Shown in pieces: positions 1,988-61,263 of a stretch of 64,000 nt of DNA. Both the position numbers and the translations under genes were made by a program. This DNA comes from an uncultured Bdellovibrionales bacterium (lineage in GTDB: Bacteria; Patescibacteriota; Minisyncoccia; Moranbacterales; UBA1568): contig CAZCNN010000001.1 in NCBI GenBank assembly GCA_964500505.1, positions 205,056 through 269,055 of the forward strand. The letters are read 5' to 3'. The first letter of the stretch is position 1. Each line of letters begins with the position of its first letter. The notes under the pieces are model-generated. The model saw nothing but the letters and a program-made list of their open reading frames with translations. It had not been told where the DNA came from and searched no databases.

Positions 1988-2704
1988 TTAGTTGGCAAAG
2001 CAGGCTTGAGGGCAGGCGGACTTGGTTGTGTATCCAGAAAATGCCTTTTGGCCATTTTCCGAACCAAGAATAAACCACTGAGTGGCATCTTGACACAGAT
2101 TCGTCCGTGGATACCAGCCCATGTAGATACTCTTGGGACTCTTGATCTTGCACGGTTTTTCAAGTGCCGTTTCGCAGGTAGGGCGGAGCCAGCCAGTCAC
2201 GGGATAATTCGTACCAAATGCACCTAACGAATACTGACCAGCGGCATTCCTAGAAAGCGAGATACAGAAATTGACATCGTTATTGTTTCCATCCTTACTG
2301 TTATAGAAGTTTTGCTGGGCTACGCAGACTTGACTATCACTCACAGAACGAATAACAGCGACGTGTCCGTGTGTACCCCCGTCAGAAACGAGCACATCCC
2401 CAGCTTGGGGTTGAACTGTAGATTGACCACCCGGATAGTATGCAAGGCCGAGTTTCTTTGCGTTAGTGGCGTAATTCTTCGCATCACCCACTGCTGGCAG
2501 TGCAATTCCGAAGAACTCCTGGTAGTAACGTTTTACAAACTCAACACACTGGTAAATCCCGTCTTCGAGCCTTCCAGAGTTTGAGTAAATTGTAACGCCG
2601 TTATAGTCACCCAGTACAGAACCATATGGCTCTTCAGTAGCGAATATGTTTCCGGCAAACATACAGCCAACTGCGAAAACAACAATAGACGTCTTGCGGG
2701 ACAT
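1988..2704 (-). CDS. Secreted CHAP-domain peptidoglycan amidase/endopeptidase
   Basis: It has a signal peptide (MSRKTSIVVFAVGCMFAGNIFA). QCVEFVKRYY carries the candidate nucleophile Cys, and GHVAVI later in the protein carries the His, matching the CHAP Cys...His arrangement. Confidence 0.65.
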   Translation of the reverse strand: MSRKTSIVVFAVGCMFAGNIFATEEPYGSVLGDYNGVTIYSNSGRLEDGIYQCVEFVKRYYQEFFGIALPAVGDAKNYATNAKKLGLAYYPGGQSTVQPQAGDVLVSDGGTHGHVAVIRSVSDSQVCVAQQNFYNSKDGNNNDVNFCISLSRNAAGQYSLGAFGTNYPVTGWLRPTCETALEKPCKIKSPKSIYMGWYPRTNLCQDATQWFILGSENGQKAFSGYTTKSACPQACFAN

Positions 2705-2807
2705 GTGAAAACTCCTAAATTGTCAAAGGGCAGAACGGGCTAGTGCCCACCTACGAACCCCAAAAAAATTTAGAATCCGTATAGTAAGCAAAAGCCAGAA
2801 AAAAAGA

Positions 2808-3473
2808 TTAGCGAACTAGTCCAAATGACTCTATCATTTTCTCATAAGTGCTCAAAGTATCACTTTGAATCTGGGTACCATTCGGATCGTACGTATATGC
2901 TAAAAGAAACATTTCGTTCCCTTTCTTCAAAAGAATAGTAACGACTTTTACACCAACTGGGTGATCTGTATTAGTTCTCTCAATCTTATATGCCATTTCA
3001 CCATTAATTTCAGGAAAACTTCTCTTTTCGTCTCCCTCAACATGACCGTATTTAAACTGATCATAAGAAATATTCGGATCAATCCTAAAAACTACTAAGC
3101 TTAGTTGTTTAATATCAAGAGGTCTATTGCCTAAATTAAAATTGTAAGCATCAGAATAGTTCGAAAATAGGGTATCGCCCCCCATAAGCTCTGCGTCTTC
3201 TTTCGGCCCACGCTGGGAAAAATCTTGATTTGCAAAACGGTCATCAACATACCACCCTTTTGGATACCGCATTGAATATCCGTACTTCTCATTCCGGTAC
3301 GTCTTCCAATCAGACGTATCGACATTATTCGTATCTGTATTTTCAGCGGTTTTCACTTCTTCTTTCAAACTATTCTTAGGCACTTCTTGATTCATTTTCT
3401 TGTTCCACACAAAAACTCCCCCAGCAACAATAATGAGTACAATGAGCACTAAGAGAACAAATTTTTTCTGCAT
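2808..3473 (-). CDS. Membrane-anchored hypothetical protein
   Basis: It has an N-terminal TM helix (FVLLVLIVLIIVAGGVFVW) followed by a soluble Tyr/Asp/Asn-rich domain. No motif recognised. Confidence 0.55.
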   Translation of the reverse strand: MQKKFVLLVLIVLIIVAGGVFVWNKKMNQEVPKNSLKEEVKTAENTDTNNVDTSDWKTYRNEKYGYSMRYPKGWYVDDRFANQDFSQRGPKEDAELMGGDTLFSNYSDAYNFNLGNRPLDIKQLSLVVFRIDPNISYDQFKYGHVEGDEKRSFPEINGEMAYKIERTNTDHPVGVKVVTILLKKGNEMFLLAYTYDPNGTQIQSDTLSTYEKMIESFGLVR

Positions 3474-3533
3474 AAGTAAATAAAAAGTTGATTGCTCTGA
3501 CTATATGATGAACGCTGGCGACTGTCAATGGCA

Positions 3534-3560
3534 AAAAAGGGCCCGGAGGCCCTCTTTTCT
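3534..3560 (-). terminator. Intrinsic terminator downstream of the DsbA-like gene
   Basis: On the minus strand the hairpin GGGCC-UCCG-GGCCC is followed by a U6 run. It lies about 20 nt past the stop codon of the 3582..4223 gene. Confidence 0.5.
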
Positions 3561-3581
3561 ATTGCTCTGCTTCCGTGAAAT

Positions 3582-4223
3582 CTATTCGACTTGGTCCTGG
3601 ACTGATTTCTTGAGCGCCTCAAAGCTCTTTGGGTTTTCCATCTTCTGGCCATTCAAGAAAAACGTCGGGGTGCCGGTAATTTTCAGTTCATTGCCAGTGT
3701 CACGATCGCGATTGATCTTGTCATCGAGCGATGCATCCGCCATATCTTGATTGAACCGCTCCATATCGAGACCGATACGACCAGCATAGGCAGGAAAAAT
3801 ACTCTTCATCGGGTCAGCAGCATTTGACCATTCTTTTTGGTTGGCAAAAAGGAGGTCATACATCTCCCAGAATTTGCCCTGTCGTCCAGCGGCCTCAGCG
3901 ACCCGAGCAGCGGGGAGGGCATTGTCATGGATCTGAATGAGTGGATAGTGACGGATGACCACGCGGAGATTGTCGCCCATTTCCTTGCTCAGCTGTTCGA
4001 TAATCGGATAGTAAGCACCGCAAGCCGGGCACTGAAAGTCAGTGTACTCAACGAGCGTCACCGGAGCATCACTCTTGCCTTTGACCCAGTCCGAGTCAGT
4101 GACATCGATAGCAGAGCCGCTGGTCCCGCCCGTTTCTGCTGGAGTACCAAAGCCGACCTTCCATATGCCCCACACGACGAGTACCAGTACCGCGACTGCG
4201 CCCAATTTCATGAGTCCACCCAT
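3582..4223 (-). CDS. DsbA-like thiol:disulfide oxidoreductase (thioredoxin fold), membrane-anchored or exported
   Basis: It has a CPAC active-site motif in DFQCPACGAYYP and an N-terminal hydrophobic segment. It follows the DsbA-family layout. Confidence 0.8.
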   Translation of the reverse strand: MGGLMKLGAVAVLVLVVWGIWKVGFGTPAETGGTSGSAIDVTDSDWVKGKSDAPVTLVEYTDFQCPACGAYYPIIEQLSKEMGDNLRVVIRHYPLIQIHDNALPAARVAEAAGRQGKFWEMYDLLFANQKEWSNAADPMKSIFPAYAGRIGLDMERFNQDMADASLDDKINRDRDTGNELKITGTPTFFLNGQKMENPKSFEALKKSVQDQVE

Positions 4224-8314: not shown

Positions 8315-11300
8315 CTAGTACTTTCCTAGGGTGACTTCAACCATTTGAGCGAGAGAAATCCGCAGATCTCTCCCCTTTTGCAAATCAGCCAGCTGTTGTC
8401 CAACTATTTCCCTTATGTCACGCACCAGAACTTCAGACGTTACCAAGCCTTCGGTAATGTACTCTTGTGCTTCCTCACTTCTCACCACAGCTTCTGGTAC
8501 GTCATCCCACAATGCTCGAAATTTTTCCGCCCAGTCCTTATCATACCCCACTACCATGTAGTGCAGGTTAGCCTTCATGAGAGCGTTGACCGAATCACGC
8601 ATGCTCCCAATATACCCCCGTACTACCGCTGGCTTTTCATCGCTCTCAACTTCTTTCAGCAAATCTTTCAACTCTCGCCGCAATTCTTTTCTTTTCATCA
8701 CCCGTTCTGCCGCCTCTTGTGCCTTGGTCTTTATCTTAGTGACCGGCTCCGCCAAAATCGGGGTCGCCGCAGCAAACACGCTCTCCAATACTGTCTCAAG
8801 GTAACCCACTTCCCCATGGAGCTCTGCTCGAATCTCTGGTGTCATTTCCATCTCTACCACTTGTGGCTTGATTTCTTTTTTCTTGATTGATACTGGCGAT
8901 TGCTTCGTCTCTGGCGCATTGGCAGGCTTGTTCTTCTCCACCTTCAGCATCTCAAAGGCTGCCGCCAATGACCCCTTGGTAACTACCCCGTTAACACGGA
9001 CAGTTTCACGAACTTCTTCCAGAATCTTGAGAGCAAGCTCCGGATCTACGGGTCTACTCAAAAAATGGCGTGAACGGCCCACTAGATGTTCTCGCCCAAT
9101 CCTGAGTTTCGACTCTATATCCAAGTAAAAAGCAGATAATTTCCCTCCGCGCACACCCGAAGCGGCAGCCAAGAGTCCCGGTTCTTCTTTATCATACAGC
9201 GCTTGCACTTCCTGAACCCTCTCTTCTTTTTCTCGGGCCTGTTGTTGCTGACGAGCTTCTTCTGCCCGAACGTAGGCTAATTGTTTTTCTTTCAGAAGGC
9301 GCTGAATACCTTGCGTGGTTTCGGAGATCATTCGCATGATTTCACTGCCCTGCTCATCACTGTGAACTTCGAGCTGCAGCTGTTCCTGGCACCATTTCAC
9401 TTGTCCTATGACCATTTCGAATTCTTCCGATGTGAAGCCAAGTTTCTCGCTCTGGTACCGGCGTGACTCCATATCAGATAACATGGACATCAGTTTCTTC
9501 CCGGTACTCCGATATTCGTTCTGCATTTGGAAAGAAAGAACAGGATTTCCGAGAATGGCTCTCAATTTCTCCAGTGATGTACTCGTATGCCACTCTGATT
9601 CCAGATACATTTTTAAGAGGAGTGGTTTTCGAGCTCCCTCTGGACCAACTTCAAAACGTGTCTCGATAGGAATCGCAGAGAAGTCCACTGGAAACAGTTG
9701 TATGGATGCTCCGAATCGCTCTGGGATGCCGCGATCGCTATCTCCGGCATGCGCTTCATACCGCACTTCTCTTTGCCTACCATTCACTTCGATCGATTCC
9801 GGATAATCACGCTCAATGCGTGCCATCATTTCATCAGGGCAAAAGTCCTGAATATCCATTCGTAAAAAATCACCGAGTCTCTGTACTTCACTCAGGGTCT
9901 GCGCATTGCCCAATCGACTGACATACCACTCCACCATATCAGGCATAGGCACAAGACCCTGAGACCTCACTCGTAACTCTTTCAACGTAGCTATGACTTT
10001 GTCATTTTCCCATGGAAATTGTAGTCGGACACCAGCGTTAAGGATAGTGCCGGGATTATAAGCAAGAGCCTCTGCCAACTTCCTAGTCGCTTGTTCGCCC
10101 TCAAGGGGTACTCCCGCCACCCCTAAATACTCCTCGCGATACTCTCCTCTTGGCAGAGAGTAATCTACCATCTGTACGGCCCGACCCAGGGAAAAGTCGA
10201 ATTCTATTTCTGATCTTGGCACTGCCTTGAGCTTATCTCCCATCAGCCGCACCACATCTTCTATCGAGGCCGGGTGAATCAGCGAGGCATAGTTCCGCTT
10301 GATCTTGCCACCAAACGCCTTCCCTTGGCCTTCAGTGATACTCCCAGCAATACAAAAGGCTGGCGGATGAGTAAAGGCGCTCGATTCAGGTGAAAAATTT
10401 ACTTCTTGATACCCATCTTTTTGCAATCGCCTGTACGAAGGAAGTCGCGATTCCGGATCACGGATCAATAACCGTTCTTGGTAACCAGCTAGGATAGAAG
10501 CATTGAGAGCACCCGGGTCAGTGTGGCGCAATCTATCCTCGAGCTCAAAACGGTCGAAATTGATACCAGCTTCCCGACTGAAATCATACATCCGATAAGC
10601 GACATGTCTGATCGCTTCCGCGTTGAGGTGGTACATCCGGCACCAATCCTTGAAGTCACGCATCGCTCGCTTCACTTCCGGCCGACGATCGTCTCCCAAG
10701 CACTCGAACACCCCGGCATCCATGGCCTGGATAAAAATATTGAGACGTTTGGCCCAGTCGGAGCCATCTTGTTCAAACCCTACCTGTTCTCGCGCTATCG
10801 CCTCCCGAGCATTGATTTTCTGTTCTTCTTTGGTATAGCCCGCTGCCCTATTCAGTTCTTCAGCCGTAGGATACATGAACAACTTCTGCTCCCGCGCAAA
10901 CAAAGCCAGGACAAGAGCGGCATCTGGGCAGCCTCTTTCTTCTGCTTCCACCAGCATCCGGGCATCTTCCGGCTTGAAAGGAATTTCAAGCATTCGTTCC
11001 CCTATCTCTGTGACGTTCCCATCGGCGTCCAAGGCACCGAGAATCCTCAATTGCTCGACACCGGCGTGCAGCGCTTCTTTATTGGGTTGTACAAAAAAAG
11101 GAAAGGTCTCCGGGTCACGACCGTGGCCACGCAAGCGCAGAATAAGATGGGCAAGGTTCGTGCGTTCGATCTCGGTCACCGCATGTTTCGGCAATTTGTC
11201 GAATTCTTCTTGGGTCAAGATTCGAAAGCAGGTACCAGCTTCTACACGTCCAGCTCGACCGGCTCGCTGTTCTGCTTCTTCTTGAGAAATGAGCTCTGTC

Positions 11301-12412
11301 ACTTTACGAGAAATTCCCGCCACAGGATCGTAGCGCATCGCATACTTACGGCAAGAGTCAACAACTACCGTGACGTTCGGCACCGTCACCGAGGTTTCCG
11401 CTACGTTCGTTGATACGATAACCCGTCTTTTCGCCTGGGCACTCTTTTCACCAGAAAGAGCCAGGTTACGTTGATCGAAAGAAAGCCCGCCGTGAAGCGG
11501 CAATACTTCTATGTCCTCGATATCAGACAGGCGCTCGATACAATCATCAATTTCTCTGGCTCCCGGCAAAAAAACCAGAATATCCCCTTCTTGCTCTCTC
11601 TGGATAGCCTCCTTGACCCGATTGGCTGTCTGTTCCAAATAGGCCGTCCTCTCGGCTTGTGGCCGATAGAGATCGTCGCGTGATGCCTCGGCAAGATAGT
11701 GTTTGTCTACTGGAAATGTCCGACCCTCTACCCTCATGAAGTCCTTGTCATCAAAATCAAAGAACTTCTGGAACTTCTCCGGATCGACGGTAGCACTGGT
11801 GAGAAAAATAAAGGGTGCTTTGCCTTCGGTTCGTAATTCTTTGAGCAACCCAAAGACATAGTGATAGTCAATCGACCCTTCGTGGACTTCGTCCAAAATT
11901 ATGGCCCCAGTATTTGAATTATCTACGGTGCCATTAAAGAGATAACGTGGGAGAATCCCGGATGTCACTACACGTACCGGCGTGTCACGATCCACCATTT
12001 TCGTTTCCGAAGTCGAATATCCGACGTCTCTCCCGAGTGCTCCTTCCGTCACTGCGCAGTGTGCTTCTGCCACGCCTTTGGCCGCATCCTTCCGAGGTTG
12101 CAAAATAATAATCTTGTCTGGCAATCCCAATTTTTTCAGTACATTCCGGACTGCAACTGGCGAATATATAGACTTCCCAGATCCGGTCTCTCCTAACAAA
12201 AGAAACATGCCACTCCGAGCCATAGCCTCCTCTACTCGTGTCTCCACCTCTTCCAGACGGGAACGAATAGGGAGATCATGAGACTCTATTTTTTTCTTGA
12301 GTAACCGAAGACGCGTTTCTGGAATGTCTTCCGAAACGACCTTATCTTCTTCATCAGACAAAGCCTGCTGCTCAGCCACTTGAATTTTATGCCAGTATTC
12401 TTCGTTTTGCAT
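8315..12412 (-). CDS. hrpA: ATP-dependent RNA helicase HrpA (DEAH-box) with a long C-terminal extension
   Basis: It has GETGSGKS (Walker A), DEVHE (DEAH motif II) and TNVAETSVTVP (motif V/VI region). A 1365-aa length matches HrpA. Confidence 0.85.
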   Translation of the reverse strand: MQNEEYWHKIQVAEQQALSDEEDKVVSEDIPETRLRLLKKKIESHDLPIRSRLEEVETRVEEAMARSGMFLLLGETGSGKSIYSPVAVRNVLKKLGLPDKIIILQPRKDAAKGVAEAHCAVTEGALGRDVGYSTSETKMVDRDTPVRVVTSGILPRYLFNGTVDNSNTGAIILDEVHEGSIDYHYVFGLLKELRTEGKAPFIFLTSATVDPEKFQKFFDFDDKDFMRVEGRTFPVDKHYLAEASRDDLYRPQAERTAYLEQTANRVKEAIQREQEGDILVFLPGAREIDDCIERLSDIEDIEVLPLHGGLSFDQRNLALSGEKSAQAKRRVIVSTNVAETSVTVPNVTVVVDSCRKYAMRYDPVAGISRKVTELISQEEAEQRAGRAGRVEAGTCFRILTQEEFDKLPKHAVTEIERTNLAHLILRLRGHGRDPETFPFFVQPNKEALHAGVEQLRILGALDADGNVTEIGERMLEIPFKPEDARMLVEAEERGCPDAALVLALFAREQKLFMYPTAEELNRAAGYTKEEQKINAREAIAREQVGFEQDGSDWAKRLNIFIQAMDAGVFECLGDDRRPEVKRAMRDFKDWCRMYHLNAEAIRHVAYRMYDFSREAGINFDRFELEDRLRHTDPGALNASILAGYQERLLIRDPESRLPSYRRLQKDGYQEVNFSPESSAFTHPPAFCIAGSITEGQGKAFGGKIKRNYASLIHPASIEDVVRLMGDKLKAVPRSEIEFDFSLGRAVQMVDYSLPRGEYREEYLGVAGVPLEGEQATRKLAEALAYNPGTILNAGVRLQFPWENDKVIATLKELRVRSQGLVPMPDMVEWYVSRLGNAQTLSEVQRLGDFLRMDIQDFCPDEMMARIERDYPESIEVNGRQREVRYEAHAGDSDRGIPERFGASIQLFPVDFSAIPIETRFEVGPEGARKPLLLKMYLESEWHTSTSLEKLRAILGNPVLSFQMQNEYRSTGKKLMSMLSDMESRRYQSEKLGFTSEEFEMVIGQVKWCQEQLQLEVHSDEQGSEIMRMISETTQGIQRLLKEKQLAYVRAEEARQQQQAREKEERVQEVQALYDKEEPGLLAAASGVRGGKLSAFYLDIESKLRIGREHLVGRSRHFLSRPVDPELALKILEEVRETVRVNGVVTKGSLAAAFEMLKVEKNKPANAPETKQSPVSIKKKEIKPQVVEMEMTPEIRAELHGEVGYLETVLESVFAAATPILAEPVTKIKTKAQEAAERVMKRKELRRELKDLLKEVESDEKPAVVRGYIGSMRDSVNALMKANLHYMVVGYDKDWAEKFRALWDDVPEAVVRSEEAQEYITEGLVTSEVLVRDIREIVGQQLADLQKGRDLRISLAQMVEVTLGKY

Positions 12413-12418
12413 AGATCG

Positions 12419-13012
12419 TTATCGCAAGACCATACCATTCCACGTGACCGTCTTGCGCAAGGCAACTAAATAATTCACCGTAAGCAACGCTGGCAAAAGA
12501 GGAATGACTCCCTCTAAAGAAACTTCTTGCTTATCTTCCGTCAGAATATCAAACAACTCTATAAGGGCACGCTCGCTCGCCTTGGGACAGCGTTGCTTGA
12601 CGTTCTCCCACACCGAAACGATATCAATGACTCCCTCATTGAAAGAAACTTCTTTTGCAAGCCCCTCCACTTGTTCTATTTCTTCTTGGGATAACTCGAG
12701 AATTTCCTTGACCCACACTGGTCTTAATTTTTCATCCCACGCATAGATAGAGAAAACCACTACCCCGACAGTCTCTAGTTCTGGACGATAACAGATTTCT
12801 GGTACGGTTCGGCGCAACCAAAGAAAAAAGAAGAGGGCGGAAAAGAAATCAGCTGTCTCTCGGAGCTCTACTGCATCATGGACTTGACCGCCCGTAAAAG
12901 ACGAAAAAATCTCCGAGCATTGCTCCGTTTGAGTAGGTAACAATAGCGGCAACGAAGATAGTGCAATCACTCTGTACGAAAGCAATTCTTCGCCTGTATC
13001 AGGCGTTCCCAT
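12419..13012 (-). CDS. Hypothetical protein
   Basis: It is a 197-aa ORF packed in-strand between hrpA and pheT. No motif recognised. Confidence 0.45.
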   Translation of the reverse strand: MGTPDTGEELLSYRVIALSSLPLLLPTQTEQCSEIFSSFTGGQVHDAVELRETADFFSALFFFLWLRRTVPEICYRPELETVGVVVFSIYAWDEKLRPVWVKEILELSQEEIEQVEGLAKEVSFNEGVIDIVSVWENVKQRCPKASERALIELFDILTEDKQEVSLEGVIPLLPALLTVNYLVALRKTVTWNGMVLR

Positions 13013-15456: not shown

Positions 15457-16494
15457 CTAGAATTGGCGAATGAAACGGAGGTCACCAGAGAGAAAAAGGC
15501 GGTTGTCATTGATACCATACTTCATCATAGCCATGCGACCGACACCAAAACCCCACGCGAAGCCCTGGTACACTCCCCGCTTGTAACCAGCTGCCTCAAG
15601 CACGTGCTGGTTGACCATACCGGCTCCGCCGAGCTCGATCCAACCACCTTGCTTGCACGTAGCGCATCCGGCTCCATCACACAGGATACAGCTGATATCG
15701 AATTCAAACGACGGTTCGGTAAACGGGAAAAAGCTCGGACGCAAACGAATACGGACTTTCTCACCAAAAAATTTGCTAAAAAATTCTTCCGCCACATGCT
15801 TAAACGTAGCCACCGTCACCTCGCCCTCGACATCCACCATGAGACATTCAAACTGATAGAATGTGTGCTCATGCGTCGCATCAGTCGCTTCGTTACGAAA
15901 GACTCGACCCGGAACAATGACCCGGAGCGGTGGTTTGTGCGTCTCCATGTACCGCACCTGGACACCAGACGTATGCGTACGTGGTAGGTAGCGATCTGTG
16001 GATTTCTTGTCACTCTTCACCCAAAACGTATCCTGCATGTCGCGCGAGGGATGATCCTTGGGGAAGTTGAGCGCGTCAAAGTTGTAGTGCTCCGTCTCTA
16101 CCTCTGGACCAGAAGCAATATCAAATCCCATCGAAGTAAAGATGTCTTCGATTTCGTGCTCGACTCGTGTGAGCGGATTGAGGTGCCCGACGCGGGTCAC
16201 TCGGCCCGGGGCCGTGATGTCGATACCCTCGGCCTGCCAGTCCACACTCTTTTCGAGCAGTTCCTTTTTCTTGGCATCGAACAAGGCGATAAGCTTTTGC
16301 TTGGTACTGTTCCCGAGCGGTCCGACGACTTTCTTGTCTTCTGGTGACAGATCACGGAGTCCCTTAAGCAAGGTATTGAGCTCGCTTTTTCGACCCAAAT
16401 ACTCAATTTCCCAAGCCTCTAGCTCCGGTAGCGTCGCAAGGGTAGCGAGCGCCGCCTCCCCTGCCTGACCAATTTTTTCAATCTGTTCTTTCAT
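15457..16494 (-). CDS. pheS: Phenylalanine--tRNA ligase alpha subunit
   Basis: The class II core FRNEATDATHEHTFYQFE and GWIELGGAGMV are typical of PheS. Confidence 0.92.
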   Translation of the reverse strand: MKEQIEKIGQAGEAALATLATLPELEAWEIEYLGRKSELNTLLKGLRDLSPEDKKVVGPLGNSTKQKLIALFDAKKKELLEKSVDWQAEGIDITAPGRVTRVGHLNPLTRVEHEIEDIFTSMGFDIASGPEVETEHYNFDALNFPKDHPSRDMQDTFWVKSDKKSTDRYLPRTHTSGVQVRYMETHKPPLRVIVPGRVFRNEATDATHEHTFYQFECLMVDVEGEVTVATFKHVAEEFFSKFFGEKVRIRLRPSFFPFTEPSFEFDISCILCDGAGCATCKQGGWIELGGAGMVNQHVLEAAGYKRGVYQGFAWGFGVGRMAMMKYGINDNRLFLSGDLRFIRQF

Positions 16495-16532
16495 GTTCGT
16501 ATTCTACCCAATTTTTCCCGTTTTGACTAAAA

Positions 16533-17981
16533 TTAGTCATTAAACACAATTCTCACCATGTAATTTTTTCCAACGCTCATCACTTTTCCATTATCATTTG
16601 TACCCACTTCATACTGCCAATCAAGAATTCTTTCCCCATCAATTTCAACCCCACCCTGTTCAATCTTGCGACGGGCATCGGACTTGCTTGTTGCAAAGCC
16701 CTGGTTAAATATGAATTCAGAAAGTTGAGCGGGTGGCCCTTGTGAAGGACTCACATTTTCTGGAATCTCTCCAGCAGACTTGGCCTCATAGAATTTCTTT
16801 GCATCTTCTGACGCAGAAGCACTATGATACATCGTTACAATCTCCTGAGCCAAACGCATCTTGATGGCTCGAACATTACCACCTGTTACTATGTCCTCGG
16901 CAATTTTAGCTATTTCTTCCATCGATAAATCAGTGCAGAGCTCGAAGTAATTCATTACTGATGTATCCGGCAAAGACATCACCTTTAAGAACATCGAATT
17001 CGGTTCATCAGTGATACCAATGTAATTATCCAGACTCTTACTCATTTTTTCCTTACCATCTGTCCCTTCCAATAATTTAAATGCCAGGACCGATTGTTCA
17101 GCCATTTTAGGCGTTTCCTTAGACATCAAGTCTCTACCGACGAGCATATTGAAAGTTTGATCTGTTCCCCCGACTTCCAAATCACAGCTACCATAAATCT
17201 TCGCTAGAGCAATAGAATCCACCCCCTGAAGAACTGGATATAACATCTCATGCATGTACAGCGGTTCACTCTTGTCAATTCTATCCTGAAACATATCACG
17301 TTCTATTAATCTAGAGTGCGTGATATGTCTCAGATTGAACATCAAGTTTATTAAAGTAATAAACTGAGTTTCTGGCTTCTTCAAAAACACATTCTGCATG
17401 CGAGTATTTTGCAGTAGGATAGCCTTCGAAACCAATGAGTTAGGATTATCTTCAATCTGAACTCCACCCTTCTCAATCACCGATTTTACATTTGCAAGAT
17501 TTTCTTTACCAATTTGTCTTGCGACATCGACATCAGCAGGCGAAGCATACCAGTCCATATTTCTAATCCAGCTGAAACTATGGCCATGCAAAATATTGCC
17601 AGCGTTATCTTTTTCGACAGTTAGAATCTTATCTATTTGCTTTAAATACGTAATCACGTTTTTTTCTACTTCCTGCTGGTCAAGCTCTGGTCTAACTTTA
17701 CTTTTCCCAGTCGGATCACCAATCATTGCAGTAAAATCACCTACCAAAAAAATCACCTTACACCCTAAGTTCTGAAATTCGCGCAATTTCCGAAAACATA
17801 CCGCATGTCCAAGATGAATATCGGGACGAGTGGGATCGACGCCGTACTTGATAACAATATCCTTGTCGTATTTCCCGTTATTCTTATCTATGAGTTTTTG
17901 GCGAAACGAACCATCTGGGTCGATGAATTCACCTACCCCGCGACTCAATACTTCGTCAATCTTTTTCTCTATATCTTGCAT
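16533..17981 (-). CDS. tyrS: Tyrosine--tRNA ligase with a C-terminal S4 domain
   Basis: It has a class I HIGH-type motif (PTRPDIHLGH) and KMSKS. The C-terminal S4-like segment is SDARRKIEQGGVEIDGERI. It is longer than typical TyrS because of internal insertions. Confidence 0.82.
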   Translation of the reverse strand: MQDIEKKIDEVLSRGVGEFIDPDGSFRQKLIDKNNGKYDKDIVIKYGVDPTRPDIHLGHAVCFRKLREFQNLGCKVIFLVGDFTAMIGDPTGKSKVRPELDQQEVEKNVITYLKQIDKILTVEKDNAGNILHGHSFSWIRNMDWYASPADVDVARQIGKENLANVKSVIEKGGVQIEDNPNSLVSKAILLQNTRMQNVFLKKPETQFITLINLMFNLRHITHSRLIERDMFQDRIDKSEPLYMHEMLYPVLQGVDSIALAKIYGSCDLEVGGTDQTFNMLVGRDLMSKETPKMAEQSVLAFKLLEGTDGKEKMSKSLDNYIGITDEPNSMFLKVMSLPDTSVMNYFELCTDLSMEEIAKIAEDIVTGGNVRAIKMRLAQEIVTMYHSASASEDAKKFYEAKSAGEIPENVSPSQGPPAQLSEFIFNQGFATSKSDARRKIEQGGVEIDGERILDWQYEVGTNDNGKVMSVGKNYMVRIVFND

Positions 17982-17991
17982 AGATATTTTC

Positions 17992-18282
17992 TTATTTCAA
18001 ACCAAATCGGGCCTTGGCCAGGCGGTACTGGTCATCAGACATTTGGCCCGCTTTGCGCATGGCTTCGAGCGAAGCAAGGATTTCACCCTTGTGCTTTTCG
18101 ATATTCTTGGGGGTCATGGCCTTGCGGAGGGTCTTCTCGCGTTCGGCAGGACTCATGTTCATGAGGCGCTTCATCGCAAAACGCTGGAGCATGTTCATGT
18201 CCTTGGTATCCGGCATACCGGGGATATTCGCCATGTCTTCTTTCTTTTCTTCTTCGTCTTTTTTACTAAAGGGATTCCACAT
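17992..18282 (-). CDS. Small Lys/Glu/Met-rich hypothetical protein
   Basis: It is 96 aa with no TM and is packed between secF and tyrS. It carries Met-rich repeats (MPDTKDMNMLQRFAMKRLMNM). Confidence 0.45.
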   Translation of the reverse strand: MWNPFSKKDEEEKKEDMANIPGMPDTKDMNMLQRFAMKRLMNMSPAEREKTLRKAMTPKNIEKHKGEILASLEAMRKAGQMSDDQYRLAKARFGLK

Positions 18283-18352: not shown

Positions 18353-19264
18353 TTACTGTTTTCTACTCAGACTGGTCTTCATAGTATACCGTGTGACCAA
18401 AAGCGCCGAGGCGATATAGACCGATGAGTACGTCCCAAAGACGACACCGGAGAGGAGCGCCACTCCGAAGTATCGGACGCTCTCACCACCGAAAATGACG
18501 ATGGCGACGAGAGTGATGATGACCGTCATCGAAGTGTTGATCGAGCGTCCCAGTGTTTCGTTGAGCGAACGATTGACGATGTTTTCGAAATCGCCCTTCT
18601 TGCTCGAACGCATGAGGTTCTCACGGACACGATCATATACCACAATGGTGTCATTGACCGAGTACCCGAGGATAGTGAGGAGGGCCGCGATAAACGGTAC
18701 TCCAACCTCTACCCCATAAAAGTGCCCGAGGACAGCAAAGAGACCGACCACGATGGTGATGTCATGAGCAAGCGCGATAATCGCTCCGAGACCGTATTCC
18801 CACGACGTAACTACGCCGGACACGCGCCTGAAAGCCCATGCGATATAGAGAGCAATACCGATAACAGAGAGAAGAATACCCGTAAAGGCATTACGCTTGA
18901 TCTGATCTGAAACAGAGCCACCGATAAAGTCCGTCCGGAGCTGCTTCACCTCTGGGTCTAGTCCACGCAATTTGGCGAGGACCTGGTCATTGGCCGCATC
19001 ATCTGAAGCCAGATACCGGAGGAGGAGCCCCTGATTCTCCGTCGGTTGCACTGTGAGACTCTTAAGAGATAGTTCGGAGAGACTTTCTTCGACTACCCGT
19101 GTCTCTGGCGTCGGGTCCACCGTAAAGCGGACTTCCATCAAGGTCCCACCCTTAAAGTCAATCCCGAGATTGAGTCCCCAGAGGATAGTCACGATGATGC
19201 TCGCCCCGGTCAAGATACCAGAGAGGAGATAGGCGTAGGCTCGTTTTTGAATGATTTGGAGCAT
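18353..19264 (-). CDS. secF: Protein translocase subunit SecF
   Basis: It has the SecF N-terminal TM and the GIDFKGGT periplasmic-domain motif, plus C-terminal TM helices. It follows secD. Confidence 0.9.
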   Translation of the reverse strand: MLQIIQKRAYAYLLSGILTGASIIVTILWGLNLGIDFKGGTLMEVRFTVDPTPETRVVEESLSELSLKSLTVQPTENQGLLLRYLASDDAANDQVLAKLRGLDPEVKQLRTDFIGGSVSDQIKRNAFTGILLSVIGIALYIAWAFRRVSGVVTSWEYGLGAIIALAHDITIVVGLFAVLGHFYGVEVGVPFIAALLTILGYSVNDTIVVYDRVRENLMRSSKKGDFENIVNRSLNETLGRSINTSMTVIITLVAIVIFGGESVRYFGVALLSGVVFGTYSSVYIASALLVTRYTMKTSLSRKQ

Positions 19265-19276
19265 GAGGGTAGATCG

Positions 19277-21010
19277 TTAGTCGTCGAGACGTTTCTTGGG
19301 TGATACGAGGAGCCACGGATGACGCTCCATCCAGTCTCCAGCGATGAACTCGGTCGTAATCCGCACCAACACCACCGCCGTAAAGAGGGAAAGGAGAACA
19401 CCGAGTGCGAGGATGATGGCAAAGCCCTTAACGAAGCCGGTCCCGAGACCGATGAGTACGACCGTGGTGATGAGGGTCGAGACGTGACCATCGCGAATAC
19501 TCGGCCAGGCGCGTCGAAATCCTTCGATGAGAGAACGTACTACACCTTTACCATACGAGAGTTCTTCGCGGGTACGCTCAAAGATAAGGACGTTGGCATC
19601 GACCGCGATACCGATCGAGAGGACGAATCCAGCGATACCAGAGAGGGTCACGGTGATACCAAAAGGGGTAAAGGCTGAGAGTTTGAAAATCGTGAGGAGC
19701 ATCGCCGTGTAAAGGAGGAGGGCAAAGACCGCCACAATACCGAGGAGACGATAGTAGAACACCATGTAGACGGCGACCGCAGCGAGACCGACTACTCCGG
19801 CAAAGAGACTCTTTTCGAGGGCTGCCTCACCAAGCGATGCATCGACACTCTGCTGGCCAACCAGGGTAATCGGTACTGGGAGAGCGCCTTCGTTCAAGCG
19901 TTTCACCAAGTCATTGGCTTCTTGCATGGTAAAGTCACCGGTGATGACGGCTTGGCCGGCGACAATCTCATTTTGGACCGTCGGCTGACTGATCATTTCG
20001 TCATCAAGAAAGATAGCGACTGGTTTGCCGATATTGCGCTTGGTGATAGCGGCAAACAAATCCGTCCCCTCGCTATCAAACTGGAGTGCAATCTGAGGTG
20101 ATCCGATACCTTGAGTTTGGTAGTCGACATAAGCATTCTTTAGGTTCTTGCCGGAGAGTCCCGTCACCTTAAAGGCAAGCTTGGGGAAATCATCGGCACT
20201 GTACTTGCGGAGGAGAATATGAGCACCATGAACTTCGCGCTCGTTCCCCTGTCCTCGTTCCTCGATTTTCTTGATAATGTGATAGCCAAACTGACTCTCG
20301 ACTACCTGTGGGTAAATAGCGCCGTCCGCCAGTCCTCCATCAAAAAGGACCTTGTCAAACTCTGGGACAAATGTCCCTGCCTTCACAAAATCGAGATCAC
20401 CGCCCTTGTCTTTGGAGCCGGGGTCCTGACTCAGTTCAGTAGCGAGTGCCGCAAAGTCCTCGCCGTTTTGAACGCGCTTAAGCACGCTTTCCGCCTGACT
20501 GCGACTCATCTGATTCATCTGGTCGAGCTGCGCCTGATCCTCAGGACTGACCACGCCGTCCGATGACTCACGGAACTCAAGAAACGGTGTTTCCTTGATC
20601 ATCTTTTTGGCCTGCTCGATGTCTTTGATACCTGGGAGCTCGACAATAATGCGCTCTTCGGTACCGGAGCGTGAGCGCTGGACGAGTGGCTCACCCACAC
20701 CGAAGGCGTTGACACGTCGTTCGATAACAGCTTCGGCCGCGACGAGGGCGTCACTCACTTTGGTTGATTCGATTTGGGAGACATCAGCTTTGTACTCAAG
20801 GTGGATACCACCTTGGATATCGAGGCCTTTGTTGACCTGCATTTTTTCAAGTGCGCTATAGAGAGGTGGGACCCACGAGACCGCCTGTGGATAAGAGATG
20901 ACACCACAAACCAGGCCAAGGAGGAGTACTCCCAGGAACTTGTAACGAATTTTGTACTGTTGTTTCATGCTCTCGAGTATACCCGAAAGTCGAAATCCAG
21001 GCAACTTCAA
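19277..21010 (-). CDS. secD: Protein translocase subunit SecD carrying an inserted parvulin-like (PpiC-type) PPIase domain
   Basis: The SecD P1 head has GGIHLEY. The C-terminal TM bundle is GIAVDANVLIFER. Residues ~150-270 (about 20200-20565) contain DFAALATELSQDPGSKDKGGDLDFV....FGYHIIK followed by HGAHILL, which are parvulin hallmarks. Confidence 0.85.
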   Translation of the reverse strand: MKLPGFRLSGILESMKQQYKIRYKFLGVLLLGLVCGVISYPQAVSWVPPLYSALEKMQVNKGLDIQGGIHLEYKADVSQIESTKVSDALVAAEAVIERRVNAFGVGEPLVQRSRSGTEERIIVELPGIKDIEQAKKMIKETPFLEFRESSDGVVSPEDQAQLDQMNQMSRSQAESVLKRVQNGEDFAALATELSQDPGSKDKGGDLDFVKAGTFVPEFDKVLFDGGLADGAIYPQVVESQFGYHIIKKIEERGQGNEREVHGAHILLRKYSADDFPKLAFKVTGLSGKNLKNAYVDYQTQGIGSPQIALQFDSEGTDLFAAITKRNIGKPVAIFLDDEMISQPTVQNEIVAGQAVITGDFTMQEANDLVKRLNEGALPVPITLVGQQSVDASLGEAALEKSLFAGVVGLAAVAVYMVFYYRLLGIVAVFALLLYTAMLLTIFKLSAFTPFGITVTLSGIAGFVLSIGIAVDANVLIFERTREELSYGKGVVRSLIEGFRRAWPSIRDGHVSTLITTVVLIGLGTGFVKGFAIILALGVLLSLFTAVVLVRITTEFIAGDWMERHPWLLVSPKKRLDD

Positions 21011-49968: not shown

Positions 49969-50023
49969 TTGGCTATTTTAGCAGAAAAACTCATTCCTTG
50001 AAATTCGTCGAGACGCTCCTGCA

Positions 50024-50386
50024 TTATTGAAACTGCCCGTTTTGTTTTTCACGAATCTTTGGAATTTTGTGATCGAGGGCCTGCATAATATCGACGTTTA
50101 GTGCCTTGGCCAACATGAAAGTACAGATAACGACATCAGCAAACTCATCCTGCAAATCAGTCGGTGCATGATCCTTCATCTTGTCCTTACGCTGTCCGCC
50201 TATTGATGCCAAGACTTCATCACACAGTTCGCCATACTCTTCTCCTAGTTTAATGATCCGCGCAAACATGTGCTCCCGCTCACTGAAATCATCCTCCCGA
50301 AGCGCTCGAAACATCGCATCCTGCTCGTCGATAAATTTTTGGAGTTCTTCTATGGTCATACGCCCAACAGTTACTCTTTTGCTCAT
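50024..50386 (-). CDS. MazG-like nucleoside triphosphate pyrophosphohydrolase (small single-domain form)
   Basis: It has the EExGE-type motif region (LGEEYGELCDEV) and DEFADVVICTFMLA, typical of MazG-like all-alpha NTP-PPases. Confidence 0.7.
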   Translation of the reverse strand: MSKRVTVGRMTIEELQKFIDEQDAMFRALREDDFSEREHMFARIIKLGEEYGELCDEVLASIGGQRKDKMKDHAPTDLQDEFADVVICTFMLAKALNVDIMQALDHKIPKIREKQNGQFQ

Positions 50387-50413
50387 TATACCACCCCTCT
50401 TTCTTCTCTCACG

Positions 50414-50453
50414 AATAACTCATCTATCCACGACCGTTAAGAGATGAGTTACT
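50414..50453. repeat. Copy 1 of a ~40-bp palindromic repeat (AATAACTCATCTAT-N-AGATGAGTTACT) in the mazG 5' leader
   Basis: aataactcatctatccacgaccgttaagagatgagttact contains a 9-bp inverted repeat aactcatct/agatgagtt with a 16-nt spacer. It is ~90% identical to copy 2. Confidence 0.6.
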
Positions 50454-50474
50454 ACAAAAAACAGAAAATCTTAT

Positions 50475-51065
50475 CTACTCCAACTGAAATGTCTTCCGTA
50501 ACCGCATATCATTCTCGATATCGCTTGCAACGATATACACCAACTCTTTACCTGCTTTATACCGAGTTTTCAAAAGCGAGATGACCTCCTCACATTCGTA
50601 CGGATATACCCAAACACTATCTTGGAGTTTCTCAAAACCAAACACCTTCATATCTATTCTGATACGATCACGTGCAGATCGCCTCTTTTCAGCAATATCA
50701 AAAATAACAATTCTCCACTTCTTATCCCATCGTCCACTCTTGATTCGCTTCTCCCGTAATTGGTACTTCAGTAATTCTTGTTGACCCTTATCCGTAAGAT
50801 ACGCCCGTGTCTCACCATTTTTGACAACAATTCGTACCATCCCACGTCGCTCCAAACTCTTCATTGTTCTCCGTATATATGACGGGATTTGATATCGAGG
50901 CGCCACCAAACGTTCGTATCCACGAAATATCCTTACTACTTGAAAAACTCCTGGCGCCATCATGCCGACCCCTATTACTCCTGCCACTCCAAGAGCACCA
51001 AGAATTATTCTCGCTACCAATCCATATGAATCAGTTTCTCTTGTTTGTTTTTCTACCCGTTTCAT
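50475..51065 (-). CDS. PaaX-like transcriptional regulator (winged helix plus PaaX-C-like domain) with an N-terminal transmembrane segment
   Basis: The wHTH is YIRRTMKSLERRGMVRIVVKNGETRAYLTDKGQQEL. The C-terminal block KWRIVIFDIAEKRRSARDRIRIDMKVFGFEKLQDSVWVYP resembles the PaaX C-terminal domain. The N-terminal hydrophobic helix is LVARIILGALGVAGVIGVGMMAPGVF. Confidence 0.55.
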   Translation of the reverse strand: MKRVEKQTRETDSYGLVARIILGALGVAGVIGVGMMAPGVFQVVRIFRGYERLVAPRYQIPSYIRRTMKSLERRGMVRIVVKNGETRAYLTDKGQQELLKYQLREKRIKSGRWDKKWRIVIFDIAEKRRSARDRIRIDMKVFGFEKLQDSVWVYPYECEEVISLLKTRYKAGKELVYIVASDIENDMRLRKTFQLE

Positions 51066-51074
51066 AACTTTTCT

Positions 51075-51114
51075 AATAACTCATCTATACACGACCGTGA
51101 AGAAATGAGTTATT
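51075..51114. repeat. Copy 2 of the ~40-bp palindromic repeat, 10 nt upstream of the PaaX-like gene start
   Basis: aataactcatctatacacgaccgtgaagaaatgagttatt is the same palindrome and spacer length as copy 1. Confidence 0.6.
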
Positions 51115-51153
51115 CGCATATGAAGAGAAAGCGTGTTACTTGATATCAGTAGC

Positions 51154-51804: not shown

Positions 51805-51811
51805 ACTAGCC

Positions 51812-61243: not shown

Positions 61244-61263
61244 AACCTATATCCACACTTCTA

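What the first reader, a model, noticed from the sequence alone, without database searches (positions are those of the whole stretch)
20200..20565. SecD carrying an inserted parvulin-type PPIase-like domain, possibly circularly permuted
Within the periplasmic P1 region of SecD there is a ~120-aa segment with parvulin hallmarks (DFAALA..S.D..S...GGDL.F, FGYHIIK). The His-containing HIL strand (HGAHILL) lies after FGYHII rather than before it, which suggests a permuted or rearranged domain. Fusion of a foldase module to the SecDF motor would be mechanistically interesting, coupling translocation pulling with prolyl isomerisation or chaperoning. I do not recall it as a described SecD architecture.
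Basis: partly seen in the sequence, partly recalled or inferred. Interest (0 to 1): 0.65.

Follow-up and report, generated by a model that had tools for sequence, protein, structure and literature searches.

The report
SecD with built-in permuted parvulin foldase
The protein-export motor subunit SecD of this small uncultured (Patescibacteria) bacterium has a protein-folding enzyme domain (parvulin prolyl isomerase) spliced into its outer arm with its first strand moved to the end, an arrangement shared by many related species but not found described in the papers I could search.

Summary
SecD (19277..21010, minus strand; the true start is probably the ATG at 20968) carries a 129-residue insert (residues 149-277, window 20180-20566). 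The insert lies between the last P1-base strand (PFLEFRE) and the first P1-head strand (FKVTGLSG).

- **Parvulin identity:** Pfam Rotamase_3 gives E 1.5e-22 but covers only profile positions 31-115 of 116, so the N-terminal beta1 strand is missing.
- **Permutation:** a beta1-like strand (EVHGAHILLR, 259-268) follows beta4 instead. AlphaFold2 folds the isolated insert as one compact domain (pLDDT 93.8, pTM 0.86) with beta4 and this strand in sequence as a hairpin. The core matches PrsA at 1.2 A over 86 columns.
- **Catalytic residues:** D196, S/T239, H244 and H264 are conserved in 70 of 70 evaluable species-level genomes. The His in beta4 and the His in the final strand are kept or lost together (Fisher p = 4e-4).
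- **Spread:** the architecture occurs across Patescibacteria (at least 80 species; 91 of the 150 best 50%-identity cluster representatives), apparently with one to four parvulin-type modules. In multi-module forms a complete canonical parvulin appears to be nested inside the permuted one.

The most likely function is a PrsA/SurA/PpiD-like foldase tethered to the SecDF arm. I found no published description. I rate it a new variant of a known kind.

The parts
19277..21010 (-). secD ORF. It is 577 aa from the TTG at 21010; the probable real start is the ATG at 20968, giving 563 aa.
   Evidence: TIGR01129 scores 366 bits against a cutoff of 244. Pfam architecture. Homologues are 558-563 aa and start MKQ... 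Start-region sequence. The full-length AF2 model matches SecDF 5xan, 5yhf and 3aqp.
20567..20836 (-). N-terminal part of the P1 base (residues 59-148), with the GG motif and SecD_1st, ending in the strand PFLEFRE.
   Evidence: Pfam Sec_GG at 59-76 and SecD_1st at 92-149. Aligns to T. thermophilus SecDF residues 27-122. Translation checked.
20180..20566 (-). The whole inserted parvulin module (residues 149-277).
   Evidence: Absent from minimal SecDs, which bridge this point in 7-10 aa. Rotamase_3 E 1.5e-22. The AF2 model of residues 150-282 has pLDDT 93.8 and pTM 0.86.
20255..20545 (-). Parvulin core in the order alpha1-alpha2-alpha3-beta2-alpha4-beta3-beta4 (residues 156-252).
   Evidence: Rotamase_3 profile positions 31-115 of 116. 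DSSP elements of the model. Foldseek hits PrsA 6vj4 (86 columns, rmsd 1.2 A) and CsPin 2rqs (81 columns, rmsd 1.9 A).
20207..20236 (-). Relocated beta1 strand EVHGAHILLR (residues 259-268), which follows beta4 after a 6-residue turn.
   Evidence: Strand E110-119 of the model at pLDDT 96-98, and the same strand in the full-length model. Aligns to beta1 of SurA P2. H-I-L is invariant in diverse single-module SecDs. Permutation score test.
20423..20425 (-). D196, in the position of Pin1 C113 / Par14 D74 (catalytic Asp/Cys).
   Evidence: 100% conserved in 120 homologues and D in 70 of 70 evaluable loci. The residue mapping comes from alignment to SurA/PrsA plus established parvulin literature.
20279..20281 (-). 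H244 in beta4 (FGYHIIK), equivalent to Pin1 H157.
   Evidence: 100% conserved.
20219..20221 (-). H264 in the relocated beta1, equivalent to Pin1 H59.
   Evidence: 99% conserved in close homologues and invariant in diverse single-module forms. Kept or lost together with H244 (18 H/H, 2 H/non-H, 5 non-H/non-H, 0 non-H/H; p = 4e-4).
20294..20296 (-). S239, equivalent to Pin1 T152 / Par14 T118 (the end of the catalytic H-bond chain).
   Evidence: S or T in 70 of 70 loci. S in 75% of close homologues.
19862..20179 (-). P1 head subdomain (residues 278-383), starting with the strand FKVTGLSGKNL.
   Evidence: Pfam SecDF_P1_head at 281-379, E 5e-29. Aligns to T. thermophilus SecDF residues 174-270.
19343..19855 (-). 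SecD transmembrane helices 2-6, with the conserved AVDAN Asp (equivalent to T. thermophilus D340).
   Evidence: SecD_SecF_C at 386-546. Alignment to 3aqp residues 174-441. The Asp is invariant in homologues (D457 in 563-aa numbering).
18353..19264 (-). secF, the partner subunit, 12 nt downstream of secD.
   Evidence: SecD_SecF_C E 1.5e-57. Aligns to the SecF half of 3aqp at E 1e-45, including the GYSVND...DRVRE and LGRS motifs.

Best explanation
**What it is.** SecD of this Moranbacteria-type Patescibacterium is an intact SecDF-type subunit. Its periplasmic P1 arm carries a covalently inserted, circularly permuted parvulin-type peptidyl-prolyl isomerase at the junction between the P1 base and the P1 head. 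The parvulin runs alpha1-alpha2-alpha3-beta2-alpha4-beta3-beta4-beta1. The strand that normally opens the domain, and that carries the first catalytic His, now closes it as a hairpin partner of beta4. The chain therefore enters and leaves the domain at the beta1/alpha1 corner.

**How it most likely works (inferred).** The full catalytic hydrogen-bond chain is retained (D196-H264-H244-S239), and the hydrophobic proline-pocket residues appear to be retained as well (L206, F214, F218). The domain is therefore most likely an active, non-phospho-specific foldase or holdase. It would sit on the mobile, proton-motive-force-driven P1 arm next to the SecYEG exit. There it would bind emerging unfolded chains, catalyse prolyl isomerisation and early folding, and so help prevent back-sliding and aggregation. 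This is the job done non-covalently by PrsA in Firmicutes, by PpiD/YfgM and SurA in E. coli, and by the PrsA-like dome proteins of Mycoplasma.

**Wider family and origin.** Related Patescibacteria SecDs carry what appear to be one to four modules. In those forms a complete canonical parvulin (or several) seems to be nested between beta4 and the relocated beta1 of a degenerate first module. That pattern suggests an origin from a SurA-like tandem parvulin array cut out of register.

**Shown versus inferred.**
- Shown computationally: the insertion, the fold, the strand order, residue conservation and the taxonomic spread.
- Inferred: enzymatic activity, action on Sec substrates, mechanical coupling to P1 motion, and the nested topology.
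For: **Insertion and SecDF integrity.**
- Pfam and NCBIfam architecture.
- Alignment to T. thermophilus SecDF on both sides of the insert.
- Minimal SecDs lack the segment.
- SecF is intact and adjacent.
- The full-length model matches SecDF structures.

**Parvulin fold.** The AF2 model of the insert has pLDDT 93.8 and pTM 0.86. Foldseek matches PrsA 6vj4 at 1.2 A over 86 columns with probability 1.0.

**Permutation.**
- The profile match starts at position 31 of 116.
- The trailing strand aligns to SurA P2 beta1.
- It is a confident beta strand right after beta4.
- The permuted order gains 3 bits and extends Pfam coverage to positions 15-115.
- It gains 5.5 bits against a canonical-parvulin HMM in 121 of 121 sequences, versus native order, a shuffled strand or deletion of the strand.
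- The two His positions are kept or lost together, p = 4e-4.

**Catalytic residues.** D196, H244 and H264 are 99-100% conserved, invariant in diverse single-module forms, and D-S/T-H-H in 70 of 70 species loci.

**Spread.** 91 of the 150 best 50%-identity representatives carry at least one module. The 80 best species-level genomes span Moraniibacteriota, Parcubacteria, Buchanan-, Kuenen-, Komeili- and Nomurabacteria. Double-module forms occur in Falkowbacteria and Parcubacteria.

**Nesting.**
- The last module of multi-module forms matches Rotamase_3 positions 2-116 in full.
- Its two His are each 120 of 120 conserved.
- The final-strand His is 52 of 120, and the first-module beta4 is never His.

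**Functional precedent.** SurA binds the SecDF P1 head (PMC9987972). PrsA-like PPIases form a complex with Sec and SecDF in Mycoplasma (10.1101/2025.04.25.650208; 10.1101/2024.09.05.611430).
Against: - No coordinates were available, so the beta1'-beta2 pairing and the H244-H264 contact were inferred from DSSP, pLDDT and topology rather than measured.
- The AF2 alignment was shallow (58 sequences, at least 49% identical to the query over the insert), and AF2 knows the parvulin fold well.
- The profile score gains from permuting are modest (3-5.5 bits).
- The 121 test sequences are related, not independent.
- PPIase activity is untested. It is known to be dispensable for the in vivo function of PrsA and SurA (established literature), so catalysis may not be the selected function.
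- Some single-module relatives have lost the His pair or the Asp (P0126, P0130, P0131, P0144, P0164, P0197, P0221), which shows the scaffold is kept without catalysis.
- A survey paper reports PrsA annotations in CPR classes (PMC9166423), so the insert need not replace a stand-alone PrsA.
- The full-length model has pTM 0.52, so the position of the parvulin relative to the head, the base and SecYEG is unknown.
Confidence: 0.72

Rival explanations
1. The insert is a non-catalytic substrate-binding or chaperone module, like the SurA P1 domain or the PpiD parvulin domain. It would simply enlarge the polypeptide-binding surface of the P1 head, and prolyl isomerisation would be irrelevant.
For: Several relatives keep the module but have lost the His pair and/or the Asp. 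The first module of multi-module SecDs is always degenerate. PPIase activity of PrsA and SurA is dispensable in vivo (established literature). The E. coli PpiD parvulin domain is inactive (PMC9643414 context).
Against: In the window protein and its clade the whole catalytic chain D-S/T-H-H is kept: 99-100% in 120 homologues and 70 of 70 species loci. The two His are lost together rather than drifting independently. That pattern indicates selection on the active site where it is present.
Confidence: 0.2
2. The domain is not truly permuted. The trailing HILL strand would be a vestige of a lost second parvulin, or part of the SecD head, and the parvulin core would function without a beta1 or borrow the SecD base strand FLEFRE.
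For: The sequence looks like a SurA P1 core plus the first strand of P2, so it could be a remnant. No coordinates were inspected.
Against: Beta1 is the central strand and carries a catalytic His. The isolated insert without FLEFRE folds confidently (pTM 0.86), with the trailing strand at pLDDT 96-98. The strand is absent from minimal SecDs. H-I-L is invariant across single-module forms at 35-61% identity. Its His is kept or lost together with the beta4 His. A vestige would not be conserved in this way.
Confidence: 0.06
3. Assembly or annotation artefact: a chimeric contig or a frame error fusing a parvulin gene into secD.
For: The window comes from a metagenome-type genome, and such chimeras do occur.
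Against: The ORF is continuous with SecD sequence on both sides. More than 200 independent sequences from NCBI, JGI, ENA and Logan assemblies share the same junctions.
Confidence: 0.01

Closest known systems
Canonical SecD/SecDF (T. thermophilus 3AQP/5YHF, D. radiodurans 5XAN, E. coli 5MG3)
   Same: TM1, P1 base, P1 head and TM2-6, the conserved TM4 Asp and a partner SecF. Sequence matches at E 2e-67 and the fold matches too. The base-to-head connection is a known variable region (7-104 aa in insert-free SecDs).
   Different: A 129-aa enzymatic domain occupies the base-to-head connection. No solved SecDF has a catalytic domain there.
PrsA (Firmicutes lipoprotein foldase; 4WO7, 6VJ4)
   Same: A membrane-tethered extracytoplasmic parvulin of a monoderm-type cell that acts after Sec. 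It is the best structural match of the core (1.2 A over 86 columns, 36% identity). It shares the Asp-type active site and lacks a phospho-binding loop.
   Different: PrsA is a separate dimeric lipoprotein whose canonical (beta1-first) parvulin is inserted in an NC chaperone domain. Here there is no NC domain and no lipobox, the order is permuted and the host is SecD. NCBIfam PrsA models match only the parvulin part, far below cutoff (47 bits against 361).
SurA (E. coli; 1M5Y), tandem parvulins P1 (inactive) and P2 (active)
   Same: It is the best sequence match (E 4e-16). The insert aligns colinearly to the P1 core, the linker and beta1 of P2. Multi-module SecDs repeat the pattern of an inactive first module and an active second one. 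SurA parvulin domains are predicted, and seen by EM, to dock on the SecDF P1 head (PMC9987972).
   Different: SurA is soluble, has N- and C-terminal chaperone segments, and associates with SecDF only transiently.
PpiD/YfgM at SecYEG (E. coli) and the Mycoplasma pneumoniae Sec 'dome' (Mdp/Mpn444, Mpn436, Mpn489)
   Same: Parvulin or PrsA-like proteins held at the outer face of the Sec translocon, cross-linked to or in complex with SecDF. They are proposed to couple translocation with folding (PMC9643414; 10.1101/2025.04.25.650208; 10.1101/2024.09.05.611430).
   Different: Those are separate polypeptides assembled non-covalently. Here the foldase is part of the SecD chain itself and is permuted.

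Membership tests
SecD (TIGR01129; SecDF-type RND accessory of the Sec translocon) | Whole-protein match to the SecD equivalog-domain model above its curated cutoff | tested here: met
   TIGR01129 scores 366.4 bits against a cutoff of 244.4, covering residues 62-551.
SecD (TIGR01129; SecDF-type RND accessory of the Sec translocon) | P1 base and P1 head periplasmic subdomains followed by a 5-helix C-terminal membrane domain with the conserved TM4 Asp | tested here: met
   Pfam SecD_1st, SecDF_P1_head and SecD_SecF_C. AVDAN aligns to T. thermophilus AVDGN. The fold matches 5xan, 5yhf and 3aqp.
SecD (TIGR01129; SecDF-type RND accessory of the Sec translocon) | Adjacent or fused SecF partner | tested here: met
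   secF at 18353..19264, E 1.5e-57 to SecD_SecF_C and E 1e-45 to the SecF half of 3aqp.
SecD (TIGR01129; SecDF-type RND accessory of the Sec translocon) | PMF-dependent stimulation of protein export | not testable with these tools
   Needs genetics or biochemistry.
Parvulin PPIase (Pfam PF00639/PF13616) | Profile match above the gathering threshold | tested here: met
   Rotamase_3 scores 80.7 bits (cutoff 22.5) and Rotamase 68.8 bits (cutoff 21.7).
Parvulin PPIase (Pfam PF00639/PF13616) | Parvulin fold: a four-stranded antiparallel sheet wrapped by four helices | tested here: met
   AF2 pLDDT 93.8. Foldseek matches PrsA 6vj4 at rmsd 1.2 A over 86 columns and CsPin 2rqs at 1.9 A over 81 columns.
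Parvulin PPIase (Pfam PF00639/PF13616) | Catalytic H-bond chain Cys/Asp - His(beta1) - His(beta4) - Thr/Ser (Pin1 C113-H59-H157-T152) | tested here: met
   D196, H264, H244 and S239 by alignment (residue mapping from established literature). Conserved.
Parvulin PPIase (Pfam PF00639/PF13616) | Canonical sequential order beta1-alpha1-alpha2-alpha3-beta2-alpha4-beta3-beta4 | tested here: not met
   The profile is matched only from position 31. Beta1 follows beta4. It is a circular permutant of the family fold.
Parvulin PPIase (Pfam PF00639/PF13616) | Measurable prolyl cis/trans isomerase activity | not testable with these tools
   Needs an enzyme assay.
PrsA foldase lipoprotein | Lipoprotein signal peptide and an N/C-terminal chaperone (NC) domain flanking the parvulin; whole-protein model match | tested here: not met
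   NCBIfam PrsA models (NF002846 and others) match only residues 172-253, at 47-52 bits against cutoffs of 343-361. The flanks are SecD base and head.
SurA | N-terminal chaperone domain, two parvulins and a C-terminal tail; whole-protein model match | tested here: not met
   NF008038 scores 39 bits against a cutoff of 394, on the parvulin segment only.

The most novel reading that the evidence does not exclude
Patescibacteria have turned SecD into a combined translocation and folding machine. A circularly permuted parvulin is built into the hinge region of the PMF-driven P1 arm. In sister lineages it acts as a host into which one to three further complete parvulins are nested between its beta4 and its relocated beta1 (a domain-in-domain-in-domain arrangement). 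Each power stroke of SecDF would then move a SurA/PrsA-like foldase array over the SecYEG exit, mechanically coupling pulling of the chain to prolyl isomerisation and holdase action. This would be the first natural circular permutant of the parvulin fold and the first covalent motor-foldase fusion in the Sec system.
Probability: 0.35. Interest if true: 0.75.

Novelty: new variant of a known kind. Interest (0 to 1): 0.6.

Why it matters
How bacteria couple Sec translocation to folding on the far side of the membrane is an active question. Current examples are PpiD/YfgM at SecYEG, SurA docking on the SecDF P1 head, and the Mycoplasma Sec 'dome' of PrsA-like proteins.

A natural, lineage-wide covalent fusion of a catalytically intact parvulin to the mobile arm of SecDF is independent evolutionary evidence that a foldase belongs at exactly that position. 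It also offers a single-chain system in which to test whether P1 motion and foldase action are coupled.

The permutation would be, as far as I could find, the first natural circular permutant of the parvulin fold. The series of one to four modules gives a readable record of how it arose from a tandem array.

It also matters for annotation. These proteins are named only 'SecD', so 'PrsA' calls in CPR genomes may partly reflect this insert.

Tried and rejected
2. **No coordinates.** Structure prediction returns none, so the His-His contact and the sheet order could not be measured. I used DSSP, pLDDT, covariation and profile tests instead.
3. **Pfam scan of a hand-permuted sequence.** It gained only 3 bits and extended coverage from positions 31-115 to 15-115. 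That is consistent with permutation but weak on its own. I replaced it with a test against an HMM of canonical nested parvulins.
4. **Taxonomy of representatives.** The listing of cluster members on 10 representatives returned no taxon names. Taxonomy came from genome contigs titles and from source names.
5. **hmmalign of the final strand.** It failed where the beta4-beta1 loop is long or the strand is degenerate. Those cases were read by eye. P0153 (a frameshifted sequence) and P0213 (a fragment of a multi-module form) were excluded.
6. **FLEFRE as beta1.** I considered that this strand might supply beta1. I rejected the idea because the strand belongs to SecD_1st, is present in insert-free SecDs, and is not needed for a confident model.
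7. **All modules permuted in tandem.** I considered that every module in multi-module forms might be permuted. I rejected it because the last module matches the full canonical profile and its His pair (middle strand plus beta4) is 120 of 120 conserved, while the final strand is variable.
8. **Literature searches.** Searches for SecD with parvulin or rotamase, SecDF with PPIase domain, circular permutation with parvulin, and CPR or Patescibacteria with SecD/PrsA/peptidyl-prolyl found no description.
9. **Stand-alone PrsA.** Absence could be tested only within the window.
Full report
**1. Observation**

The finding lies inside a 577-codon ORF on the minus strand (19277..21010). NCBIfam identifies it as SecD: TIGR01129 scores 366 bits against a cutoff of 244. 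Pfam gives the architecture Sec_GG, SecD_1st (92-149), Rotamase_3/Rotamase (164-251; E 1.5e-22 and 8e-19), SecDF_P1_head (281-379) and SecD_SecF_C (386-546).

secF follows 12 nt downstream (18353..19264). It aligns to the SecF half of T. thermophilus SecDF at E 1e-45, including the GYSxND...DRxRE motif.

Homologues are 558-563 aa and begin MKQ.., so the real start is probably the ATG at 20968, 14 codons inside the listed ORF. I use the 577-aa numbering throughout.

**2. It is an insertion**

T. thermophilus and D. radiodurans SecDF align to residues 53-155 and again from about residue 301. The middle is left unmatched.

I searched 1.84 billion cluster representatives with the P1 region. Among the best 150 hits, SecDs without a parvulin connect the base strand (..LEFKE) to the first head strand (..TGLTGK..) in as few as 7-10 residues, for example LEFKELKGKDFVATNLTGRYL. 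The whole segment 149-277, including the trailing HILL strand, is therefore foreign to SecD.

The length of this connection falls into classes:

| Connection length (aa) | Parvulin modules |
|---|---|
| 7-104 | none |
| 124-184 | one |
| 227-267 | two |
| 342-399 | about three |
| 473 | about four |

The module counts for the longer classes are inferred from length steps of roughly 115 aa. My HMM misses many degenerate modules, and some connections of 142-228 aa had no parvulin hit at all.

**3. It is a parvulin, and it is permuted**

*Missing first strand.* The Pfam match covers only profile positions 31-115 of 116. The first strand and the start of helix 1 are missing upstream.

*SurA alignment.* phmmer against PDB sequences aligns the insert colinearly with the SurA P1 core, the P1-P2 linker and the first strand of P2. 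EVHARHILLK in SurA corresponds to EVHGAHILLR here.

*Predicted structure.* AlphaFold2 was run on residues 150-282 alone with 57 homologues. It gives one compact domain, with mean pLDDT 93.8 and pTM 0.86. The elements in order are a long alpha1, alpha2, alpha3, beta2 (GDLDF), alpha4 (PEFDKVL), a short beta3, beta4 (FGYHIIKKIEE), a 6-residue turn, and a 10-residue strand EVHGAHILLR at pLDDT 96-98. The same secondary structure appears in the full-length model.

*Fold match.* Foldseek matches the core to B. anthracis PrsA (6vj4; 86 columns, rmsd 1.2 A, probability 1.0) and to an archaeal Pin (2rqs; 81 columns, rmsd 1.9 A).

*Where the strand must sit.* In canonical parvulins beta1 lies next to beta4 and antiparallel to it; this is established knowledge of the Pin1 and Par10 structures. 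A strand that follows beta4 after a tight turn and is assigned E by DSSP is therefore most simply read as filling exactly that slot.

*Sequence tests.*
- Moving the strand in front of the core extends Pfam coverage to positions 15-115 and adds 3 bits. A shuffled strand does not.
- I built an HMM from the canonical, beta1-first parvulins of multi-module SecDs. Against it, the permuted order scores 5.5 +/- 2.0 bits above native order in 121 of 121 sequences. It scores 4.6 bits above a shuffled-strand control. These sequences are related, so this shows a consistent sign, not 121 independent trials.

*Covariation.* Among single-module representatives the beta4 position and the final-strand position are H/H in 18, H/non-H in 2 (both have also lost the catalytic Asp), non-H/non-H in 5 and non-H/H in 0. 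Fisher's exact test gives p = 4e-4.

*Limit.* I could not inspect coordinates. The His-His contact is therefore inferred, not measured.

**4. Catalytic competence**

I mapped residues through the SurA/PrsA alignments onto the established parvulin hydrogen-bond chain (Pin1 C113-H59-H157-T152; Par14 D74-H42-H123-T118). The equivalents here are D196, H264, H244 and S239.

- In 120 close homologues D196 and H244 are 100% conserved and H264 is 99% conserved. H261 is not conserved.
- In 13 single-module sequences down to 34% identity, H244 and H264-I-L are invariant.
- In 70 of 70 evaluable species-level loci the four positions read D-S/T-H-H.
- The residues I take to form the hydrophobic pocket, by analogy with Pin1 L122/M130/F134, are also conserved: L206, F214 and F218.

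**5. Distribution**

All 120 nearest cluster representatives carry the rotamase domains and are labelled, where named, Candidatus Moranbacteria/Moraniibacteriota or Patescibacteria.

In the 50%-identity library, 91 of the best 150 representatives carry at least one module: 67 with one detected and 24 with two. Some of them are SecDF fusions of about 1000-1100 aa.

A scan of one genome per GTDB species returned 80 loci that all cover base, parvulin, final strand and head. Their titles name Moraniibacteriota, the Parcubacteria group, Buchananbacteria, Kuenenbacteria, Komeilibacteria, Nomurabacteria and others. Several MAGs titled 'uncultured Bdellovibrionales' or 'Gammaproteobacteria' look like automatic mislabels. 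Two-module forms are named Falkowbacteria, Parcubacteria or Patescibacteria.

**6. Multi-module relatives and the nested model**

In two-module SecDs the order is: base, core 1 (with no upstream beta1 and never a beta4 His), a xxASHILI strand, core 2 (FGYHxI), a final strand, then the head.

Pfam matches the second module over profile positions 2-116, so it is a complete canonical parvulin that owns the middle strand.

In 120 Falkowbacteria-type sequences the conservation is as follows:

| Position | Conservation |
|---|---|
| Middle-strand His | 120/120 |
| Core-2 beta4 His | 120/120 |
| Final-strand His | 52/120 (otherwise R, V, Y) |
| Core-1 beta4 | E, D, S or L; never His among the commonest residues tallied |

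Across the broader multi-module representatives the final strand has His in about 3 of 47, although the preceding core has it in 43 of 47.

The simplest reading is that the final strand completes the first, degenerate core. The canonical module or modules would then be nested between beta4 and beta1 of a permuted host. The window protein is the version with nothing nested, in which the permuted module itself is catalytically intact.

The colinearity with SurA (P1 core plus P2 beta1) suggests an origin by out-of-register capture from a tandem parvulin array. This is inference.

**7. Mechanism and comparison**

SecDF uses the proton-motive force to swing the P1 head between its F and I forms and so pull substrates (established knowledge; structures 3AQP, 5XAN and 5YHF are recovered).

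Foldases are known to gather at this spot without covalent linkage:
- SurA parvulin domains dock on the SecDF P1 head by EM and AlphaFold (PMC9987972).
- PpiD/YfgM binds SecYEG (PMC9643414).
- In M. pneumoniae, PrsA-like PPIase lipoproteins form a dome over SecYEG-SecDF and cross-link to SecD (10.1101/2025.04.25.650208; 10.1101/2024.09.05.611430).

The window protein achieves the same juxtaposition covalently. I therefore propose a tethered PPIase/holdase acting on chains as they emerge. Mechanical coupling to P1 motion is possible but unproven.

It is not a PrsA or a SurA. Their whole-protein models hit only the parvulin segment and fall far below cutoff, and their chaperone domains are absent.

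**8. Novelty**

Seven full-text searches found no description of a SecD-parvulin fusion or of a permuted parvulin. The library does not cover all journals.

The Pfam domain co-occurrence is already precomputed in public resources. The fusion is therefore visible in databases but, as far as I can tell, has not been analysed.

My verdict is a new variant of known kinds: an intact SecD and an intact parvulin in an undescribed, permuted, covalent arrangement that is conserved across a major bacterial radiation.

**9. Limits**

- There are no coordinates and no activity data.
- The stand-alone PrsA question is answered only for these 64 kb, where no other parvulin was found.
- The position of the parvulin relative to the channel is unknown (full-length pTM 0.52).

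Noticed in passing
window 20968-21010 (-): The mechanical secD ORF starts at the TTG at 21010, only 12 nt after the stop of the upstream ABC-F gene. Homologues are 558-563 aa and begin at the MKQ.. that corresponds to the ATG at 20968, so the real protein is probably 563 aa.
   Followed up: partly
P0128, P0133, P0145, P0154, P0200, P0252 and others: Related Patescibacteria SecDs carry two, apparently three, or four parvulin-type modules at the same junction, with connection lengths of about 245, 345-400 and 473 aa. Some are SecD-SecF fusions of about 1000-1100 aa. The first module is degenerate and the last is a complete canonical parvulin.
   Followed up: partly
L001, L002, L013 and others: Public MAG records titled 'uncultured Bdellovibrionales' or 'uncultured Gammaproteobacteria' encode Moranbacteria-type SecD up to 88% identical to the window. 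These taxon labels look like automatic misassignments of Patescibacteria bins.
   Followed up: no
window 16533-17981 (-): The tyrosyl-tRNA synthetase catalytic domain spans 358 residues (40-397) for 283 Pfam profile positions (4-286 of 292), which implies an insertion of about 70 aa in the Rossmann-fold core.
   Followed up: no
window 17992-18282 (-): A 96-aa Lys/Met/Glu-rich ORF lies between tyrS and secF. It has no family match except a sub-threshold RPAP1_N hit. It could be a small unannotated gene in the position where yajC-like genes sometimes sit, or it could be non-coding.
   Followed up: no
window 8315-12412 (-): A 1365-aa DEAD/Helicase_C/HA2 helicase in which only the first ~480 residues match Pfam families. 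About 880 C-terminal residues have no match.
   Followed up: no
window 12419-13012 (-): A 197-aa ORF between the helicase and pheT with no Pfam match at E <= 0.001.
   Followed up: no
window 1-64000: There are no tRNA genes and no Rfam family at gathering threshold in the whole 64 kb. Nearly all long ORFs are on the minus strand, and cumulative GC skew falls monotonically, consistent with a single replichore.
   Followed up: no
window 2001-4000, 16001-18000, 50001-52000, 60001-62000: Four 2-kb blocks have about 43-44% G+C against about 52% for the rest of the window. One of them covers tyrS and the small ORF just downstream of secF.
   Followed up: no
PDB 8hm3/8hm4: A 427-aa PPIase (entries titled 'Complex of PPIase-BfUbb' and 'Crystal structure of PPIase') is the only solved structure whose sequence and Foldseek alignments run past beta4 into the query's trailing strand (113-124 columns, rmsd 3.6-4.0 A). 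It may have a tandem or strand-sharing arrangement that is worth comparing with coordinates.
   Followed up: no
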